NCBI GenBank assembly: GCA_049315825.1
Contig: JBMOJK010000004.1
Coordinates: 648-64,647, forward strand
Direction: 5' to 3'
DNA: 64,000 bases
Origin: Patescibacteria group bacterium
GTDB taxonomy: Bacteria > Patescibacteriota > Gracilibacteria > BD1-5 > UBA2023
Shown here piece after piece: positions 23,767 through 40,385 of the stretch. Made by a program: the position numbers and the translations under genes. The notes under the pieces are model-generated. The model had not been told where the DNA came from. It was given only the letters and a program-made list of their open reading frames with translations, and searched no databases. How positions within the stretch are numbered: position 1 is the first letter of the stretch; each line of letters opens with the position of its first letter.

Positions 23767-23946
23767 ATGGCAGAAAATCTCAAAATTCAGCCTCCTTACC
23801 CAAAAGATACAAATTCCTCCTGAGACACACTCCCCTTTGCAAAAAGTGTCATCGAAACAACTCGAAGACACTTTTTGAACATAGATAGTCAAGAGCTTAC
23901 TACTGATGCTTCGGTTTGAGATATATCAACATGAGATACTTCAAGC
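23767..23946 (+). CDS. Possible 59-aa ORF
   Basis: From ATG 23767: MAENLKIQPPYPKDTNSS-G-DTLPFAKSVIETTRRHFLNIDSQELTTDASV-G-DIST-G-DTSS to TAG. It lies 5 nt after the hydrolase stop and is followed by the 23987-24026 hairpin. No motif recognised. Confidence 0.25.
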
Positions 23947-23986
23947 TAGCTTGAATATTGCAAACAATCAATACATACAAACTAAA

Positions 23987-24026
23987 ATCACCCCTTTTCT
24001 CTCTATATAAAGAGAAAAGGGGTGAT
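23987..24026. terminator. Strong perfect hairpin (16-bp stem)
   Basis: atcaccccttttctct (23987-24002) and agagaaaaggggtgat (24011-24026) are perfect complements, with loop ctatataa. The hairpin marks the left edge of the AT-rich island. Confidence 0.6.
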
Positions 24027-24152
24027 TTGTAGCAACTTCAGATTATATAATTAAGACAATATCTCTATGTAGTCAGCATTCTCCAGAATCTTACTAGAAA
24101 AAATAATAGTATAAAATCCAGCTCAATCTGTAGAAATTACATCAGATACATC

Positions 24153-25058
24153 TCCTACTCATACCTCAATCGAATCAAATCAATAATTATATCGAGGCAC
24201 GAGAGTTTTGGTTTCTGATTTTCAGTGAATCACAATAGTTTCGCCAATGTTCTTGTATCGCATTTTTAGTGGCAGTTTTCCTCAGAGTTTTTTATAGTCG
24301 TCTAAATGTATTAAAACAGAATTTTGTGTTCATCGAGAAGTACATGTCTGTACATTTACAAGGGCAGAAATTTTTCTTCAGCTTATGACACCACTCGACT
24401 GAAAGTAAAGTTGATCTGAGATAGGATGCGGGGTAGTTGCAGCGATATACTTCATTTGAGGATATCTTGCATTCGTATCTTTAAATCGAACTATTTCATT
24501 TTCCGGAGAAAATTGATCAGAAATTTCAGTTCTCCAACTCATGCTCAGCGGATAATCTGCGAGCGCCCCTGTATGATTTTGCCCCTGCTGTAAACCGACG
24601 GCGAGTCCCACAACTGTAGTTTTCGATGTAAAGTCTCAGATTGTATCAACTCTTGAGCCTATATTTACACAGAAGTTATCACCTGCATTGCTTGCGGTAT
24701 TATTTGATTGAAATAAAGTGCTGTATTTTTCAGTACTTTCCTTAATGGATTGCTTGTACTTTTCCTGACATTTTTCCGTGGATGATGACATTTGCTCGCA
24801 AATCTCTCATGCACTTAAAAGTCCTGATATATTAGTAAATCCATCTATATTCAAGAAGTATCAATTATCCATTGGAGCCGTAGCAATCTCAGACTTCGGT
24901 GATTGTATAATAGGATATATATGAATCGAACTATCAATAGAACCTGTACCAACCACTACTCAAGTAGAAGTGACCACCGATTGTGAAATAGTTGCCTTTG
25001 TACAGCTTCCCAGAATAAAGAATGAGAGTGTAAGGAGGGATAGATGTTTAAGTGACAA
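24153..25058 (-). CDS. Putative lipoprotein, unknown function (TGA-dense)
   Basis: I translated this codon by codon. The frame of track ORF 24378..24611 stays open from 25175 to TAG 24153-24155, with 10 in-frame TGAs. There is no in-frame ATG before the signal sequence. TTG at 25056-25058 gives MSLKHLSLLTLSFFILGSC, a signal peptide plus lipobox. The start codon is uncertain. Confidence 0.45.
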
Positions 25059-25134
25059 GATGAATAACTTTGATGATAAGTTTATACGGTGATTGTATCT
25101 AGATTTTGAGAAATAAGATTGAATAATTCAGTCT

Positions 25135-25164
25135 AAAAAGCGGGTATAGGTATACCCGCTTTTT
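25135..25164. terminator. Bidirectional rho-independent terminator
   Basis: In aaaaagcgggtataggtatacccgcttttt, agcgggt pairs with acccgct and A/T runs flank the stem. It lies 12 nt downstream of the stop of the pcrA-tail copy at 25176. Confidence 0.7.
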
Positions 25165-25175
25165 AGTGTAGCTTT

Positions 25176-25431
25176 TTAGCCAATCTTCTCCAGTGGAGCT
25201 ATCTTGATATTGAGCTTCTTGATCCCTTTGTAGAGACCACCGAATGCAATTTCTGCAATATCATCTCGCAGACTCACGATCGTACCTTCTCCAAACTGTG
25301 GATGTCGAACTCGGTTTCCGAGTGAGAATTCACCTGCAACGTGTTCCTTGATAGATCGTACCTGTGGCTTCACGCTCGATGCAAAACTTGCAAAAGATGA
25401 TGGATTGAACGATGTAAATCGGAACTCTGGT
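25176..25431 (-). pseudogene. Detached duplicate of the last 84 codons of pcrA (C-terminal Tudor-like domain), lacking the helicase body
   Basis: It encodes ..PEFRFTSFNPSSFASFASSVKPQVRSIKEHVAGEFSLGNRVRHPQFGEGTIVSLRDDIAEIAFGGLYKGIKKLNIKIAPLEKIG. This is identical in protein sequence to the C-terminus of the intact gene at 26678. A TAA lies 8 codons upstream of the homology. The only in-frame start is GTG (track ORF 25176..25373). Confidence 0.75.
25177..25431. repeat. Direct repeat copy A (255 bp)
   Basis: It aligns base for base with 26679-26933 (offset +1502), with 244/255 identical positions. Homology ends abruptly at 25431/25432 and at 25176/25177. Confidence 0.95.
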
Positions 25432-25462
25432 GCGCTATACTTAAATCTTAATTAAAAGTGAA

Positions 25463-25490
25463 TTGACTTTCCTTACTTGAAAAATAAATT
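25463..25490 (+). promoter_or_regulatory. Putative promoter of the island cassette
   Basis: TTGACT (25463-25468), a 16-nt spacer, then TAAATT (25485-25490). It is upstream of ATG 25583, with gaaaggaaa just before the start. Confidence 0.3.
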
Positions 25491-25582
25491 ACAAGCGCTT
25501 CTAGAAATAGGTTCTAGTGAGTCAGAGGTTACTTTGTAATCGTTGTTAAACAAATACACAAATTGAAGAAAGGAAATACCAC

Positions 25583-25945
25583 ATGAGTATTTTCAGAAAA
25601 ATCCTTGTCATCGGTATTATTGCAACTCTGAGCATGACTGCTCATGCAGAACGTAAAACCGTATACACAGCACCAACTTGGGTAGAACATTACTATGAAT
25701 TCAACACTACCCAAACAGAAAATCCTGACCAAAACTGGTGGTGTGGCCATACTGCTCTCAAGATAGTAGCACGGTATCACACTGGACAAACTCACTCACT
25801 GCAAACCATCCATAATACATTGCTTAATATATATACACGCAAAATCATTGAAAAATTCTTACATAGAGAATTTCGTAATGATATATGAATACCTAATCTA
25901 ACCCTATGAAAAAAACTCTGTTCGCTCTTTTATCGCTTGGAATAG
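25583..25945 (+). CDS. Secreted peptidase-C39-like N-terminal fragment (probably truncated)
   Basis: MSIFRKILVIGIIATLSMTAHA is a signal peptide. NWWCGHTALKIVARYHTG resembles the catalytic-Cys block of C39-like peptidases (CG.t...M.l.y.G), but no downstream His/Asp region follows. The frame reads through two TGAs to TAG 25943-25945 and overlaps the next gene by 40 nt. Confidence 0.4.
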
Positions 25946-26625
25946 TGAGTTGTGCGCCATCTACAAACAACATTCAAACACCACATTCATCTAACGCTCT
26001 ACAAACCATTGCAATATCCTCTGAAGCAATTTGGAACGATCCAATAAATTCTAAATACAATGACCTTACTGGACCAACGATAGAGCTTGTTCGAAAAATG
26101 CCCCCACGTGAGCGATTCACGTATAACTGCACTGGATCAAATACTGAAATGTATACTGCAATTCAAGCTCTCCCAGACCAAATAAGCATGTGGATATCTG
26201 CAAGTCCTACTTGCCAAGGAACGTGGATTCCCGTCGAATTAAAAAAGATACTTCTCAATCGCAAAACAATGGTTCTGTGATTACATGGATTTGCCTATCC
26301 AAATGAGGATTACGCATTTTTAGCACAGATTCCAAGTCATATTCTTTTTATTCAATCTCCCGACTGGCTTCAGTTTCCTTCAAGCAGTGAAAATGCAAGC
26401 ACACTTCTTCATGCTCCAAATAAAAAACTATACGTTATAAACTGATATACTAACACAGAAAATCGACTTGCTACCCAAAAAGAAGCAATGCTATGTGAAA
26501 AAATTCTCCAATCACCTATAGTAAAAGATTTTCATTACGGACAACAAGCACCGTCAAAAGAACAAATAGACATCTATCGACAATATGATAAATGTTATAT
26601 GAACATACCTACGATACAAAAATAG
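25906..26625 (+). CDS. Lipoprotein of unknown function
   Basis: MKKTLFALLSLGIVSC is a signal peptide plus lipobox. Track ORF 25906..26280 continues through TGA 26278-26280 and one further TGA (..KTMVL-G-LHGFAYPNEDY..VIN-G-YTNTEN..) to TAG 26623-26625. Confidence 0.6.
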
Positions 26626-26677
26626 AATACGATCTCAGTTTGAGTGTTAAAAGAGAATGAATAACCTCTTTGCTTAC

Positions 26678-28885
26678 CTAGCCAATCTTCTCCAGTGGAG
26701 CTATCTTGATATTGAGCTTCTTAATCCCTTTATATAAGCCTCCAAAAGCAATTTCTGCAATATCATCTCGCAGGCTCACGATCGTACCTTCTCCAAACTG
26801 TGGATGTCGAACTCGATTTCCGAGTGAGAATTCACCTGCAACGTGTTCCTTGATAGATCGTACCTGTGGCTTCACGCTCGATGCAAAACTTGCAAAAGAT
26901 GATGGATTGAACGATGTGAATCGGAACTCTGGTTCTTTGCGGTTTGATTCAAGGAGATGCTCTGGGATTTCTTTGAGGAATCTGGAGCGTGGATTGGCAC
27001 TATATGTCCCAAAACTATAGCGTTCTCGGGCACGGGTGATGAAAAGTGCTTTCTTTGCTCGTGTAAGAGCAACATACATAAGCCTGCGTTCTTCTTCGAG
27101 TTGCTTGCTGTCTTGAAGTGAGCGGGAATGTGGAAAGACTCACTCTTCTGCTCCTGCGATGATAACGTTCTTGAATTCGAGTCCCTTTGCAAGGTGGATT
27201 GTCATAAGCGAGACGAGATTTTCACCCTGCTCCTCACGATCAGAATCCGTGATAAGCGCGATATCTTCGAGGAACATCGAAAGTGCTTCGCGCGGTTCAA
27301 GTCCATCGTAGCGAGACGCCATATTGGCGAATTCCTTGATGTTTTCTTCCTTTCCTTCGGCTTCTTCTTTGCTGAATTCTGCAAGCAGATAGTCAGCATA
27401 TTTTGTGCGCTTTACGACTTCTTCGAGTGTCTCACGAACGCTCTTAGTCTGTGCGAATTCTACGAGTCCGTCATAGAGCCCAAGAAATCCTTCAAATGCC
27501 TTCATAGCAGCTCCTCCGAATGCATTTTCCGCAATTCCTTGCGAGATTGCTGTACGGAAATCAAGCCCGAACTGTCCTGCGAATTGCAGTAGATCACCCA
27601 CGGACTTATCACCGAGCTTGCGGCTTGGGACGTTGATAATACGCTGAAGACTCGCGATGTCTGAAGGATTGAAGATGAGTCGAAGGTATGCGAGGATGTC
27701 CTTGATTTCTTTGCGCTCGTAGAACTTCACACCACCATAGATACGGTATGGTATACTCTTGCGGATGAGAGATTCTTCGATAAGTCGCGACTGACTATTG
27801 GTTCGATACAAGATCGCCCAGTCAGAATACGCGCCTGATCCATCGCTTACGTCACTTGTGATGAATGATACAATCTCTCTCCCCTCTTCTTTTTCGTCGG
27901 AAGTTTCGAGTTCGATGATCTTCTCGCCTTGCTCGTTCTCAGTCCAGAGGGTTTTATCGAGGGCTTCTTTGTTGTTCTTGATGAGCGCGTTAGCTGCAGC
28001 GATCACCGTCTTGGTTGAGCGGTAGTTCTCCTCGAGCTTAATGACGTTCGCATCTGGATAGTCCTTCTCGAAGTGGAGGATATTTTGGATATTCGCCCCT
28101 CGCCAGCTATATATCCCCTGCCAGTCGTCTCCAACGACTGCAAGATTGCGAGACTTCTCAGCAAGGAGCTTCACGATGCGGTACTGAATCTCATTGGTAT
28201 CCTGATACTCATCGACCATGATATAGCTGAAGCGATCATGAAAATACGCCTTCACTTCAGGAAGTGAGAGCATCTCGTACACCTTGAGGAGGATATCATC
28301 GAAGTCGAGTGCATTTGCTTCTTTCATGCGCTTCTCGTACTCGAGATACACGGCAGCAACGATAGATTTTACATAACTATCCGCAGATCTGCGGTACTGA
28401 TCTGGGGAAATTCCTTCGTTCTTGGCAGCAGAAATCATCCCAACCACCTGACGTGGCGGGATTTCTTTCTCGTCTACTTTTTGGGTTTTGAGGATGTCTT
28501 TGAGGAGGCGAATCTTGTCATCTTCGTCGAAGATGACAAAGCTCTTCGAGTATCCGATCCGATCGATAAACAGCCGCAAGAAATACACTCCAACCGAGTG
28601 AAATGTCCCGACCATCGGAATCCCTTTTTGGCGATACGGGTTGACCGAACCAAGCTCGAGACCGAGTTTCTTGGCGGTTCGTTCGCGCATCTCTTTGGCA
28701 GCCTTGTTGGTAAAGGTTACACACAAAATACTCTCCGGTGGAATCCCGACATCAAGCACCAAATGCGCCACACGCTCCGTGAGGGTGTGAGTCTTCCCTG
28801 CCCCCGCACCGGCAAGTATCAAGAGCGGTCCGTCTATATGATCGACGGCCTTTTTTTGTTCTGTATTGAGCATAATTTTATGCAC
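26678..28885 (-). CDS. pcrA: ATP-dependent DNA helicase PcrA/UvrD (superfamily 1)
   Basis: Track ORFs 27140..28885 and 26678..27079 share a frame and join at TGA 27140-27142 (..AGAEE-G-VFPHSRS..). Motifs: AGAGAGKTHTLT (Walker A), DEYQDTN, VGDDWQGIYSWRGA, TIHLAKGLEF, YVALTRAKK. TAG stop. Confidence 0.95.
26679..26933. repeat. Direct repeat copy B (255 bp, the 3' end of intact pcrA)
   Basis: Partner of 25177-25431. There are 11 mismatches, 8 of them within the 25 nt corresponding to copy A positions 25221-25245. Confidence 0.95.
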
Positions 28886-28894
28886 AGAGTATAT

Positions 28895-28925
28895 AAAATC
28901 CCCTCACAAATGCGAGGGGATTTTT
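28895..28925. terminator. Bidirectional rho-independent terminator
   Basis: aaaatcccctc (28895-28905) pairs with gaggggatttt (28914-28924), with loop acaaatgc. It lies between the M23 peptidase gene and the pcrA start. Confidence 0.7.
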
Positions 28926-36699: not shown

Positions 36700-37545
36700 A
36701 TGGTAAATTTTGCATACGTAGCTCTCGCGCTCTTCGGGGCGATATTTGGAAGCTTTGCCTCAGCACTCATCCCAAGACTCAAAGAAGGACGAAGCATGTC
36801 CAAAGAACGAAGCGCATGTCCGGCATGCGATCATACGCTCGGAGTACTTGACCTCTTCCCTATCCTTTCCTTTGCACTACTGCGAGGAAAATGTCGACAC
36901 TGTGGAGCAAAGATTCCAGCGTATCATTTTCTGCTTGAGTGTCTGATGTGTGCGGTCTTTGTACTGAGTGGAATGTACCACGTGGATATGAGCGCGATTC
37001 TTCTTGGTGATACCATCGAGGCAATTCGGCTCGCAATATTTCTCGTATCAGGATTCGTTGCAGTAACGTTCACGGTCTACGATATTTTATACATGGAAAT
37101 CCCTGACGCAGTGATTTTGCCATGTATTGCGGGATTATTTATACTTTTGAGTATTGATCACTTTTCATCGATTTCTCTCTTTAGTCACTATCTGCCTTTT
37201 GCGACTGAGTGGATGAATCTCCCGCTCGCGAACGCACTCATGGGGGCTGCGATTATATTTGGATTCTTCTTCCTGCAGATCGTAGTATCAAACGGTACAT
37301 GGATGGGCGGTGGAGACCTTCGTATAGCCATCTTTATGGGGCTTCTTGCAGGTACAAAGATTGCACTGCTTGGACTTTTTGCAGCATATATTATCGGAAG
37401 CATCATCGGAGTTGGGATCATTGCCGTGAAACGCAGTCGCAATATCCAAGTACCTTTTGGACCATATCTCGCAGCAGGTCTGTATGTTGCACTCTTTTTT
37501 CATGTCGAGATCTTGAATTGGTACTTTGGATTATTGCACATTTAA
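36700..37545 (+). CDS. pilD: Prepilin peptidase / N-methyltransferase (peptidase A24)
   Basis: Uninterrupted 281-aa ORF. The Zn-binding N-terminal box is CPACDHTL..GKCRHCGAKI. It has multiple TM helices and the catalytic-Asp regions YDILYMEIPD and GGGDLRIAIFMGLLAG. Confidence 0.9.
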   Translation: MVNFAYVALALFGAIFGSFASALIPRLKEGRSMSKERSACPACDHTLGVLDLFPILSFALLRGKCRHCGAKIPAYHFLLECLMCAVFVLSGMYHVDMSAILLGDTIEAIRLAIFLVSGFVAVTFTVYDILYMEIPDAVILPCIAGLFILLSIDHFSSISLFSHYLPFATEWMNLPLANALMGAAIIFGFFFLQIVVSNGTWMGGGDLRIAIFMGLLAGTKIALLGLFAAYIIGSIIGVGIIAVKRSRNIQVPFGPYLAAGLYVALFFHVEILNWYFGLLHI

Positions 37546-39725: not shown

Positions 39726-40385
39726 ATGTTTACTAATTCTCGCGGGAATTCGATCATAGAAGTTATTGTAGTCATGCTCGTACTCACGACAGGATTAACG
39801 GGTGCCTATGGTATTCTTTCGAGCGGTCAGACACTCGCGGTGACTACAGAAAATAGAATCAAGGCAGTTAATATTGCTCGAGAAGGGATAGAGGCAGTCG
39901 AAAATATCCGCTCTACCAACTGGATTAAATTCTCCAGCGACTACAACGCCTGCTACGATACTGCAGACTACAATCCGCTCTGCATCGGGAATACAAACCC
40001 CGCACGTCCCTATAGTTTAAAATCAGGTTCGTACATCATGACTGGTAACTCTGGCGGAGCCTGGAGTCTGAGTGGAGTAACCTCACCAGGAAGCTATACA
40101 GGTGCGACCAGGCCTCAGTATCTTGCAGTATTTCCAATATACCTAGACAGCAACGGACTCCTCTCTCAAAAAGGCCCCCCACCGAGTCTTAAGTGCACAA
40201 ATACAATCTCACGAAACTGCGTATCTATTTTTACTCGAGAAATACGTATCACTCGTCCAGCTGATTACAGTAATATACAAATAGAATCCATTGTTACCTG
40301 GAAAGATGGAACTCGTGATGAGCCGTATTCGATCACCCTCAATCATACGCTCACAAACTGGAAATACAATTACTACCAAAAATAA
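39726..40385 (+). CDS. Type IV pilin-like / pseudopilin protein
   Basis: MFTNSRG|NSIIEVIVVMLVLTTGLTGAYGIL is a class III (prepilin) signal, with Gly at -1, Glu at +5 and a hydrophobic helix. It starts 4 nt after the previous gene and lies in the same operon as pilD. Confidence 0.75.
   Translation: MFTNSRGNSIIEVIVVMLVLTTGLTGAYGILSSGQTLAVTTENRIKAVNIAREGIEAVENIRSTNWIKFSSDYNACYDTADYNPLCIGNTNPARPYSLKSGSYIMTGNSGGAWSLSGVTSPGSYTGATRPQYLAVFPIYLDSNGLLSQKGPPPSLKCTNTISRNCVSIFTREIRITRPADYSNIQIESIVTWKDGTRDEPYSITLNHTLTNWKYNYYQK

What the first reader, a model, noticed from the sequence alone, without database searches (positions are those of the whole stretch)
25176..26933. A 255-bp direct repeat duplicates the 3' end of pcrA around a 1.25-kb cassette; all 11 mismatches are synonymous and 8 sit in one 25-nt patch
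25177-25431 and 26679-26933 align base for base at a constant offset of 1,502 nt, with 244/255 identical positions.

Copy B is the true end of pcrA (its last 84 codons). Copy A is a detached tail with a stop 8 codons upstream of the homology.

All 11 differences leave the protein unchanged. Eight of them hit 7 of 10 consecutive codons (IAFGGLYKGI):
- Copy A: ATT GCA TTC GGT GGT CTC TAC AAA GGG ATC.
- Copy B: ATT GCT TTT GGA GGC TTA TAT AAA GGG ATT.

About 100 nt on either side of this patch are almost identical. The stop codons also differ (TAA versus TAG).

The strong terminator at 25135-25164 follows copy A, not copy B. This suggests that copy A plus the terminator is the ancestral gene end, and that the cassette arrived carrying its own pcrA-tail homolog. 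That is the pattern expected for Campbell-type or site-specific integration into the 3' end of a gene, here with a 1,502-bp unit. However, no integrase or transposase is present.

The purely synonymous divergence means both tails evolved under protein-level selection, either in different lineages or because copy A is still translated. A GTG at 25371-25373 would give a 65-aa stand-alone Tudor-like domain, and in UvrD/PcrA this domain contacts RNA polymerase. The synonymous patch could instead mark a gene-conversion boundary, or a recoded recognition site for a nuclease, a spacer or a small RNA.
Basis: partly seen in the sequence, partly recalled or inferred. Interest (0 to 1): 0.75.

Follow-up and report, generated by a model that had tools for sequence, protein, structure and literature searches.

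The report
Displaced pcrA tail beside inserted cassette
A small piece of foreign DNA carrying two surface-protein genes was spliced into the end of an essential helicase gene (pcrA) in an uncultured code-25 bacterium; the gene stayed intact because its last 84 codons were duplicated, a known kind of recombination scar rather than a new genetic system.

Summary
Positions 25177-25431 and 26679-26933 are 244/255 identical at an offset of 1,502 nt. All 11 differences are synonymous, and 8 fall within 25 nt. The genome reads TGA as Gly (code 25). Copy B ends an intact pcrA (PcrA/UvrD Tudor domain). Copy A is detached and is followed by the only strong terminator.

Five relatives (76-88% nt identity) have no duplicate, no cassette and no neighbouring lipoprotein gene. 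The window therefore carries a 2.8-kb low-GC, TGA-rich island. It holds an orphan lipoprotein gene, an 81-codon stump of a secreted C39-like peptidase gene, and a second orphan lipoprotein gene.

At every A/B difference, copy A has the state seen in the relatives. All the changes lie on copy B, so the synonymous-only pattern says nothing about selection on copy A.

The 25-nt patch in B is the most island-like codon stretch in the whole of pcrA.

Best reading: recent integration of horizontally acquired DNA, anchored by homology in the pcrA tail. This displaced the native tail, as in e14/icd-icdC, CIMEs and rhs C-terminal displacement. No recombinase, transposon ends, tRNA or phage/plasmid relative was found.

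No reads or same-species genomes were available, so an assembly artefact cannot be excluded. Moderate-to-low interest.

The parts
26678..28909 (-). pcrA (UvrD/PcrA helicase). Intact only under code 25, with one in-frame TGA read as Gly. The likely start is the ATG at 28873.
   Evidence: UvrD-helicase 1e-86, UvrD_C 2e-79, PcrA_UvrD_tudor 3e-6. Orthologues of 63-85% aa identity occur in Gracilibacteria/Peribacteria-type MAGs.
26679..26933 (-). Repeat copy B: the last 84 codons of the functional pcrA (linker plus Tudor domain), with stop TAG at 26678-26680. It carries all the derived synonymous changes.
26723..26747 (-). 25-nt patch in copy B with 8 synonymous changes in 7 of the 10 codons IAFGGLYKGI. 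It is the most island-like codon stretch of pcrA.
25432..26677 (+). 1,246-bp cassette between the repeats. GC is 36% and GC3 0.26-0.32. It has no terminal inverted repeats and no significant direct repeats.
25583..25945 (+). orf1: signal peptide plus the first 81 residues (25583-25825) of a secreted Peptidase_C39_2-like cysteine peptidase. Homologues are 195-273 aa, so this is a truncated gene stump. A conserved upstream element lies at 25496-25525.
25906..26625 (+). orf2: a 239-aa predicted lipoprotein (lipobox IVSC) with two in-frame TGA codons. It is an orphan and converges on pcrA, with its stop 52 nt from the pcrA stop.
25176..25431 (-). Repeat copy A: the displaced pcrA tail (84 codons plus TAA) with ancestral-type sequence. 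It has no attached gene body. Automatic annotation calls a 65-aa GTG ORF (25176-25373) here.
25133..25166 (.). Strong bidirectional intrinsic terminator just downstream of copy A (15-bp stem, A-run/T-run).
   Evidence: -25.6 kcal/mol, z = -7.5.
24051..25058 (-). 335-aa predicted lipoprotein gene forming the outer part of the same low-GC island. It has 11 in-frame TGA codons and is an orphan.
23985..24028 (.). 22-bp-arm hairpin (one mismatch) that acts as terminator of the 335-aa gene.
   Evidence: -32.9 kcal/mol, z = -8.5.
23767..23949 (+). Remnant of a DUF4116 gene. Only the first ~36 codons (to about 23877) are homologous to the intact 149-150-aa gene that abuts pcrA in the relatives. This marks the far edge of the island.

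Best explanation
**Proposed event.** A recent recombination event spliced horizontally acquired DNA into the 3' end of pcrA, using the pcrA tail itself as the homologous anchor. The incoming molecule came from a close relative that carried a different insert downstream of pcrA. It consisted of that relative's pcrA 3' region followed directly by the low-GC cassette (orf2 plus a stump of a C39-like peptidase gene).

**How it joined.** One end joined by homology within pcrA. The other end joined at an arbitrary point in the resident gene (25431/25432), 84 codons before its stop. This is homology-facilitated illegitimate recombination or, less likely, a Campbell-type single crossover of a circularised fragment.

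**Result.** The order is now: pcrA body, donor-type tail B, cassette, displaced native tail A, native terminator. PcrA stays full length and unchanged in protein sequence. Copy A is a young, non-functional relic.

**The differences.** The A/B differences are donor-versus-recipient allele differences. They are synonymous because both alleles were working gene ends. The dense 25-nt patch is a short stretch of more foreign, island-type sequence inherited with the donor allele.

**Shown versus inferred.** Shown: the anatomy, the polarity of the changes, the foreign composition, and absence from relatives. Inferred: the donor, the uptake route and the order of events.
For: 1. **The insertion is lineage-specific.** L052/L053, L054, L055 (about 88% nt) and L007 (76% nt) have one pcrA tail only. 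Downstream lies a DUF4116 gene, a short spacer, or a terminator followed by the metallo-beta-lactamase-fold (MBL) hydrolase gene. None has the cassette, copy A or the 335-aa gene. None of the 56 fetched loci has a duplicated pcrA tail.
2. **Foreign composition.**
   - Cassette and 335-aa gene are 36-37% GC, against 45-47% in the flanking genes; this is the lowest GC in the window.
   - GC3 is 0.26-0.32 against 0.38-0.51.
   - TGA-Gly accounts for 15/40 Gly codons against 95/1079 in core genes, P = 1.5e-6.
   - The nearest relative of orf1 sits on a 36.8% GC contig.
3. **Boundary asymmetry matches an anchored insertion.** One edge of the homology is exactly the stop codon, which is also where pcrA homology ends among all the relatives. 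The other edge is an arbitrary mid-gene point.
4. **Polarity.**
   - A and B share 6 derived substitutions relative to L054 = L052, so they are sister alleles.
   - A then has 0 further changes and B has 8-11.
   - This rejects in-situ duplication with equal drift (11:0, P = 0.001).
   - Under a uniformly placed Campbell crossover, all donor states would land on B only if the crossover fell in the first 15 of about 255 nt (about 6%). This favours a joint at the 5' edge.
5. **The patch.** In the five clade members the patch differs from copy A at 1-3 positions and from copy B at 7-10. B's codons give log10 LR(island/core) = +1.25. The pcrA mean is -0.98 +/- 0.83, and only 0.7% of windows score as high. 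Copy A's patch scores -1.58.
6. **No mobility machinery.** No recombinase, terminal inverted or direct repeats, tRNA or Rfam family was found. There are no relatives in the viral, phage or plasmid collections.
7. **The cassette is itself scarred.** orf1 is cut after residue 81, as expected in a slot that evolves by illegitimate joints.
8. **Uptake machinery.** A prepilin peptidase and a pilin-like gene lie in the window, compatible with DNA uptake.
9. **Precedents.** HFIR and C-terminal displacement (PMC5361080). Imports of about 28 bp and interspersed recipient segments after transformation (PMC4917963).
Against: - No donor, empty site or second assembly of the same species was found, so neither junction is independently confirmed.
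- HFIR as described experimentally usually deletes recipient DNA rather than duplicating the anchor.
- Microhomology at the illegitimate joint cannot be seen, because it is hidden inside the repeat.
- The patch is separated from the cassette by 44 nt identical to copy A. A single contiguous block of distant-donor sequence therefore does not explain it. A mosaic or an earlier micro-import has to be assumed.
- The peptide IAFGGLYKGI occurs only in this narrow clade, and no sampled member has B-like codons.
- If the patch counts as one event, the branch asymmetry (about 5 events to 0) is only P = 0.06.
- A recombinase encoded outside the window cannot be excluded.
- Natural competence is inferred, not shown.
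Confidence: 0.5

Rival explanations
1. The 1,502-bp unit is a decayed site-specific integrative element, like a CIME or a remnant of an e14-type element. Its attachment site includes a replacement pcrA 3' end. The repeats are attL and attR, the crossover core lies at the 5' edge of the homology, and an integrase acts or acted in trans or was deleted.
For: - The architecture matches e14 in icd. There, the gene continues into the element and a C-terminal pseudogene (icdC) sits at the far end, with mostly synonymous differences that include a two-base Leu change (PMC13626634).
- Integrase-less CIMEs of 1.2-13 kb sit at the 3' ends of rpmG, rpsI, fda and rplL (PMC7563491).
- All derived states lie on the gene-attached copy, as expected if the crossover is at the 5' edge.
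- The patch has element-like (island-like) codon usage.
Against: - No integrase, excisionase, relaxase or vestige of one lies in the cassette or the island.
- No related element occurs at pcrA in the five clade relatives that cover the pcrA 3' end, or in any of the 56 fetched loci.
- Nothing similar was found in the viral, phage or plasmid collections.
- Outside the patch the two copies are 98.7% identical over 230 nt. This is unusual for an independently evolving element-borne gene end.
- The cargo includes a truncated gene.
Confidence: 0.2
2. The structure is an assembly or consensus artefact of a strain mixture in the metagenome. Two pcrA-tail alleles from co-occurring strains, or a free 1.5-kb circle, were threaded into one path. 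The patch reflects reads recruited from another population.
For: - The source is a MAG.
- The two copies share exact runs of up to 104 nt, longer than common k-mer sizes, so phasing depends on read-level information.
- No independent assembly covers the site.
- Related species co-occur in public samples.
Against: - The cassette-to-copy-A junction has no sequence overlap that could create a false join.
- The first discriminating base lies only 16 nt inside each copy. It links the gene body to B-type sequence and the cassette end to A-type sequence. That is the integrated configuration, not the free-circle configuration.
- Both copies are present in the deposited record, where the 65-aa ORF is annotated twice.
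Confidence: 0.1
3. The tail was duplicated in place. Copy A is kept because it has a function: either a stand-alone 65-aa Tudor-domain protein that contacts RNA polymerase, or a spare template for repairing the pcrA end.
For: - Copy A has no frameshift, nonsense or nonsynonymous change.
- An ORF from GTG 25371-25373 covers the complete Tudor domain.
- Automatic annotation calls it a protein.
Against: - Copy A has 0-1 changes of any kind since it split from B, so its intactness is explained by youth, not selection.
- The 11:0 distribution of changes rejects equal drift after an in-place duplication (P = 0.001).
- No Shine-Dalgarno-like sequence precedes the GTG.
- The same GTG ORF exists inside copy B.
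- No stand-alone copy exists in the five clade relatives that cover the pcrA 3' end.
Confidence: 0.05
4. The 25-nt patch is a deliberately recoded target site. The ancestral sequence would be recognised by a sequence-specific nuclease or guide RNA (homing-type endonuclease, CRISPR or a similar system). The cassette-bearing allele would escape cleavage through multiple synonymous changes, as in intron-less homing by free-standing endonucleases.
For: - Eight synonymous changes fall in 25 nt, the size of a homing-endonuclease or guide target. The cluster lies next to an insertion at a conserved gene, with clustering P about 5e-6.
- The ancestral version is well conserved among relatives.
Against: - No nuclease is present. 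Both cassette ORFs carry secretion signals.
- There is no CRISPR array or other repeat in the window and no RNA family.
- The susceptible ancestral site persists in the same genome as copy A.
- The codon-usage match to the island gives a simpler origin.
Confidence: 0.04

Closest known systems
e14 / phage 21 integration into icd of E. coli (icd plus the icdC pseudogene)
   Same: - An insert sits in the 3' end of a housekeeping gene.
- The gene is completed by insert-side sequence.
- The native C-terminal fragment is displaced to the far end as a direct repeat.
- The differences are mainly synonymous, including a two-base Leu codon change (PMC13626634).
   Different: - e14 is a 15-kb prophage with its own integrase and SOS-induced excision. 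Here the insert is 1.25 kb with no recombinase.
- Here the copies are 98.7% identical outside one patch.
- Here there are no amino-acid differences at all.
CIMEs (cis-mobilizable elements) at the 3' ends of rpmG, rpsI, fda and rplL in streptococci
   Same: A small (from 1.2 kb) integrase-less cargo element is flanked by direct repeats at the 3' end of a conserved gene (PMC7563491).
   Different: - CIMEs derive from ICEs or IMEs and are recognised by short att sites shared with such elements, usually in tandem with one.
- No ICE or IME, att core or related element was found here.
C-terminal displacement by homology-facilitated illegitimate recombination (rhs/CdiA orphan tips, T6SS effector-immunity arrays)
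   Same: - Incoming DNA is anchored by a conserved upstream coding region.
- The new 3' part plus its downstream genes becomes attached to the gene.
- The old 3' part is shifted downstream as an orphan fragment that retains a piece of the conserved region (PMC5361080).
   Different: - In those systems the displaced and incoming tips encode different toxins, and the process diversifies the protein.
- Here both tails encode the identical peptide, and the only novelty is the downstream cargo.
- The target is a helicase gene in a candidate-phyla (Patescibacteria group) bacterium.
Micro-imports and interspersed recipient segments after natural transformation (Helicobacter pylori)
   Same: Donor-type patches of about 28 bp, and imports interrupted by recipient-type sequence, are documented outcomes of one transformation event (PMC4917963). 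This matches a 25-nt foreign patch flanked by native-type sequence.
   Different: - The precedent is in a different organism, with donors about 4.5% divergent.
- Here the patch differs at 8 of 25 positions and its donor is unknown.
- Competence of this organism is only inferred.

Membership tests
Homology-anchored integration with anchor duplication (HFIR / Campbell-type; C-terminal displacement) | Heterologous DNA flanked by direct repeats of the homologous anchor, with the target gene kept intact. | tested here: met
   A 255-nt repeat brackets the 1,246-bp cassette, and pcrA is full length.
Homology-anchored integration with anchor duplication (HFIR / Campbell-type; C-terminal displacement) | The insert is absent from related genomes at the same locus and is compositionally foreign. 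| tested here: met
   Absent from the five clade relatives that cover the pcrA 3' end. GC, GC3 and TGA usage all deviate.
Homology-anchored integration with anchor duplication (HFIR / Campbell-type; C-terminal displacement) | One natural homology boundary and one arbitrary (illegitimate) joint with short microhomology. | tested here: inconclusive
   The boundaries are the stop codon and a mid-gene point. Microhomology cannot be read because the joint lies at the edge of the repeat.
Homology-anchored integration with anchor duplication (HFIR / Campbell-type; C-terminal displacement) | Donor-type sequence extends upstream of the repeat into the gene body (HFIR) or not (Campbell). | not testable with these tools
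   No same-species reference allele of pcrA was found.
Site-specific integrative element (e14-like prophage remnant / CIME) | An integrase or excisionase, or recognisable vestiges of one, in or next to the element. | tested here: not met
   The cassette holds only a C39-like stump and an orphan lipoprotein gene. The neighbouring island gene is an orphan lipoprotein.
Site-specific integrative element (e14-like prophage remnant / CIME) | Related elements using the same att site in other genomes. | tested here: not met
   None in 56 loci, including the five clade relatives that cover the pcrA 3' end. None in the viral, phage or plasmid sets.
Site-specific integrative element (e14-like prophage remnant / CIME) | Precise excision products: a circle junction and an empty attB. 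| not testable with these tools
   Needs reads from the source sample.
Transposon / insertion sequence | Terminal inverted repeats, a short target-site duplication and a transposase. | tested here: not met
   The best inverted match between the ends is 10/15 (P = 0.97) and the best direct match is 12/15 (P = 0.13). There is no transposase.
Free-standing homing endonuclease locus (intron-less homing) | An endonuclease gene next to a conserved gene whose recognition site is recoded in the carrier. | tested here: not met
   A recoded patch is present but no nuclease gene is. Both ORFs are secreted or lipoproteins.
PcrA/UvrD helicase with C-terminal Tudor domain | UvrD helicase N- and C-terminal domains plus PF21196 at the C-terminus. 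| tested here: met
   PF21196 covers residues 685-729 and lies fully inside the duplicated segment.

The most novel reading that the evidence does not exclude
The 1.5-kb unit is a minimal, recombinase-less mobile cassette of code-25 bacteria. It homes to the pcrA 3' end by carrying its own synonymously recoded Tudor-tail. The 25-nt recoded patch would then be a functional feature. It could give immunity against a nuclease or guide that cuts the unoccupied site, or it could block reversal by recombination. In that case it is not a passive trace of the donor allele.
Probability: 0.05. Interest if true: 0.75.

Novelty: new member of a known kind. Interest (0 to 1): 0.3.

Why it matters
- It is a clean, datable snapshot of how a genome-reduced, uncultured candidate-phyla bacterium adds surface-protein genes next to an essential gene without breaking it. 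The gene's own 3' end serves as the landing pad.
- The spot between pcrA and the metallo-beta-lactamase-fold (MBL) hydrolase gene is a variable slot. It has four different fillings in six relatives.
- Outgroup polarity can overturn a dN/dS-style argument: 'all synonymous' here reflects the functional copy, not the relic.
- Practically, it flags two things. The deposited genome appears to be annotated with the wrong genetic code. The 255-bp repeat should also make the cassette prone to deletion.
- It does not reveal a new class of mobile element or a new mechanism.

Tried and rejected
- **Same-species assemblies, to confirm the junctions or find an empty site.** Exact-protein look-ups for YchF, the pcrA fragments, the MBL hydrolase, orf2 and the 65-aa ORF gave only a 2.2-kb YchF contig. 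The metagenome scan gave only a 2-kb contig with the pcrA 5' end.
- **Homologues of orf2 and the 335-aa lipoprotein.** None among 5.8 billion proteins. No Pfam hits.
- **Phage, plasmid or viral origin.** No DNA or protein match.
- **Template-switch origin of the patch.** No 10-mer of the B patch recurs nearby on either strand.
- **Transposon-like ends or an att-like short repeat.** Not significant.
- **Structured RNA or tRNA target.** Only sub-threshold Rfam hits and no tRNA.
- **Diversity-generating retroelement.** Rejected, because the changes are not adenine-specific.
- **Is the patch unusual against the background of lineage-specific divergence?** It is not. Clusters of 5-6 window-specific changes per 25 nt occur elsewhere in pcrA. 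It is exceptional only relative to copy A and in its codon usage.
- **Recurrent pcrA-tail duplication elsewhere.** None in 56 loci.

Full report
**1.

- The repeat finder reports one family: 25177-25431 and 26679-26933, 255 nt, 96% identical, spacing 1,502. It is the only direct or inverted repeat of at least 35 nt in the 64-kb window.
- A base-by-base comparison gives 11 mismatches. Eight of them lie between 25221 and 25245 in copy A, which is 26723-26747 in copy B.
- On the minus strand both copies translate to the same 84 residues, PEFRF...LEKIG. The stops are TAA (copy A) and TAG (copy B).
- A random substitution in this segment is synonymous with probability 0.245, so 11 of 11 synonymous has P about 2e-7. 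Eight of 11 within 25 nt has P about 5e-6 when differences are permuted over synonymous sites.

**2. What the genes are**

- The region makes sense only under genetic code 25 (TGA = Gly). With it, pcrA is one ORF (26678-28909) carrying UvrD-helicase, UvrD_C and a C-terminal PcrA_UvrD_tudor domain at residues 685-729. The repeat therefore duplicates the linker plus the whole Tudor domain.
- Copy B is the real gene end. Copy A is detached.
- A very stable bidirectional terminator follows copy A (25133-25166; -25.6 kcal/mol, z = -7.5). Nothing comparable follows copy B (z = 0.2). pcrA transcripts probably run antisense through the cassette.
- The cassette (25432-26677) has two plus-strand ORFs that converge on pcrA.
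  - orf1 (25583-25945) has a signal peptide and the catalytic-Cys motif NWWCGHTALK. It matches 195-273-aa secreted Peptidase_C39_2-like proteins only over its first 81 residues. It is a 5' stump of a gene, with a conserved upstream element at 25496-25525.
  - orf2 (25906-26625) is a 239-aa predicted lipoprotein. It has no homologue among 5.8 billion proteins and no Pfam domain.
- Below copy A and its terminator lies a further orphan lipoprotein gene (24051-25058) with its own strong hairpin at 23985-24028.

**3. Comparison with relatives**

- Scans with PcrA and with its C-terminal fragment recovered these clade members:
  - L007, a complete MAG chromosome: 85% aa and 76% nt identity;
  - four Logan contigs at about 88% nt identity: L052, L053, L054, L055;
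  - L001, a same-species contig (99.8% identity) that covers only ychF.
- None of the five has a second pcrA tail, the cassette or the 335-aa gene.
  - In L052, L053 and L055 the pcrA stop abuts a convergent 149-150-aa DUF4116 gene, followed by the MBL-fold hydrolase gene.
  - In L007 a terminator and then the hydrolase gene follow.
  - In L054 about 25-38 nt of spacer lead into sequence weakly similar to window 23936-23902.
- The window keeps only the first ~36 codons of the DUF4116 gene (23767 to about 23877).
- The window therefore has a lineage-specific island of about 2.8 kb (about 23878-26677), with copy A embedded in it.
- The island is compositionally foreign:
  - 36-37% GC against 45-47% in the flanking genes, the lowest in the window;
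  - GC3 of 0.26-0.32 against 0.38-0.51;
  - TGA accounts for 15 of 40 Gly codons against 95 of 1,079 in core genes (P = 1.5e-6).
- The frequent in-frame TGA codons show that the source was also a code-25 organism. The closest orf1 relative sits on a 36.8% GC contig.
- Homology among all the relatives ends exactly at the pcrA stop codon. The space between pcrA and the hydrolase gene is thus a variable slot.

**4. Polarity of the differences**

- In an alignment of both copies with the five relatives, copy A carries the outgroup state at every one of the 11 differing sites and at the stop codon. One site is ambiguous. Copy B carries the derived state.
- A and B share six derived substitutions relative to L054 = L052, so they are sister alleles. 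After their split, A has 0 further changes and B has 8 by the same criterion.
- Three consequences follow.
  - The 'all synonymous' signal belongs to the copy that is part of the working gene. It gives no evidence that copy A is or was translated. Copy A is simply young.
  - An in-place duplication followed by equal drift is rejected (11:0, P = 0.001). If the patch counts as one event, the asymmetry is about 5:0, P = 0.06.
  - If B is the incoming allele and A the resident one, a randomly placed single crossover inside the repeat would have split the differences between the copies. All of them land on B only if the exchange fell in the first 15 nt of homology (about 6%) or upstream of it. This favours an illegitimate or site-specific joint at the 5' edge.

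**5. The patch**

- All five relatives, even the one at 76% overall identity, differ from copy A's patch at only 1-3 of 30 positions. They differ from copy B's patch at 7-10.
- The peptide IAFGGLYKGI is confined to this narrow clade. The next relatives have IAFSGANRGI or IAFIGTHKGI.
- B's codons (GCT, TTT, TTA, TAT, ATT) match the island's usage rather than the host's. TTA makes up 4% of Leu codons in core genes and 17% in island genes.
- The log10 likelihood ratio (island/core) is +1.25 for B's patch and -1.58 for A's. The pcrA-wide mean is -0.98 +/- 0.83, which puts B's patch in the top 0.7% of windows; the other windows scoring that high overlap it.
- No nearby sequence could have templated the patch.
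- Measured only as lineage-specific change against the outgroups, clusters of 5-6 changes per 25 nt occur elsewhere in pcrA. The patch is remarkable relative to copy A and in its codon usage, not in raw density.
- The simplest reading is a short stretch of more foreign sequence that travelled with the incoming allele.
- The patch is separated from the cassette by 44 nt identical to copy A. A mosaic outcome or an earlier micro-import must therefore be assumed. Imports of about 28 bp and interspersed recipient segments are documented after natural transformation in H. pylori (PMC4917963).

**6. Mechanism**

- I found no integrase, transposase, terminal repeats, tRNA, Rfam family or phage/plasmid/viral relative.
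- The best-supported explanation (confidence 0.5) is homology-anchored integration of horizontally acquired DNA.
  - A fragment from a close relative carried that relative's pcrA 3' region plus a different filling of the slot.
  - It paired with the resident pcrA and was joined at its far end to an arbitrary point 84 codons before the resident stop.
  - The native tail and its terminator were displaced downstream.
- This is the logic proposed for rhs C-terminal displacement and for T6SS effector-immunity arrays (PMC5361080).
- A prepilin peptidase and a pilin-like gene in the window are compatible with DNA uptake, but competence is inferred.
- A decayed site-specific element is the main rival (0.2). 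It is architecturally identical to e14 in icd with the icdC pseudogene (PMC13626634) and to integrase-less CIMEs at gene 3' ends (PMC7563491). It fails the tests for recombinase vestiges and for related elements.
- An assembly artefact (0.1) cannot be excluded without reads. However, the cassette-to-copy-A junction has no overlap that could create a false join. The first discriminating base, 16 nt inside each copy, supports the integrated configuration. The deposited record contains both copies.
- A functional stand-alone Tudor mini-protein (0.05) and a recoded nuclease or guide target (0.04) lack any positive evidence.

**7. Verdict**

- The selection argument about copy A is not supported.
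- This is a new example of a known kind of recombination scar, in an unusual organism and gene. One detail remains unexplained: the origin of the patch.
- Interest is moderate to low (0.3).

Noticed in passing
whole window; e.g. 26678-28909, 24051-25058, 25906-26625: The genome needs translation table 25 (TGA = Gly). The public record behind the window (locus tag ACOYN2_02425, contig 65,399 bp) lists the 65-aa ORF under two accessions (MFZ4461401/2). This suggests it was annotated with code 11, which would break pcrA and other genes into fragments.
   Followed up: partly
24051-26625 vs the rest of the window: Island genes use TGA for 15 of 40 Gly codons, against 95 of 1,079 in core genes (P = 1.5e-6), and have GC3 of 0.26-0.32. 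This is the signature of DNA from a different, AT-richer code-25 organism.
   Followed up: yes
23767-23949: A 60-codon ORF whose first ~36 codons are the 5' end of a DUF4116 gene. That gene is intact (149-150 aa) and abuts pcrA in relatives L052, L053 and L055. The remainder has been replaced, which marks an older rearrangement in the same slot.
   Followed up: partly
25583-25945: orf1 is the first 81 residues of a secreted Peptidase_C39_2-like cysteine peptidase. The catalytic Cys motif is present, but the His-containing half is missing. It is a gene stump created by a second breakpoint, near 25826, inside the cassette.
   Followed up: yes
27513-27535: A 23-nt near-copy (87%) of part of the repeat lies inside the pcrA body. 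The helicase has an internal IAENAFGG that resembles the tail's IAEIAFGG. It is probably coincidental and does not match the B-type patch.
   Followed up: partly
36700-37545 and 39726-40385: A prepilin peptidase (A24_N_bact plus Peptidase_A24) and a protein with an N-terminal methylation motif. These are type IV pilus or competence-pseudopilus components, about 10 kb from the locus.
   Followed up: partly
26755-26773 (minus strand): The T-rich codons of the B patch (GCT TTT GG) create a weak terminator-like site (a 6-bp stem followed by a T-run) inside the pcrA coding sequence. The site is absent from copy A. It is probably incidental.
   Followed up: no
L029:5703-5851 and L029:12914-13059: A Nanohaloarchaeota contig has a 149-nt, 94%-identical copy of the 3' region of its UvrD-like helicase gene 7.2 kb downstream. 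Ordinary housekeeping genes lie in between. This may be another detached helicase fragment.
   Followed up: partly
27024-27118 (minus strand): A sub-threshold Rfam hit (32 bits, against a gathering score of 65) to RF03531, a C. difficile sRNA annotated inside a helicase gene. It most likely reflects conserved helicase coding sequence.
   Followed up: no
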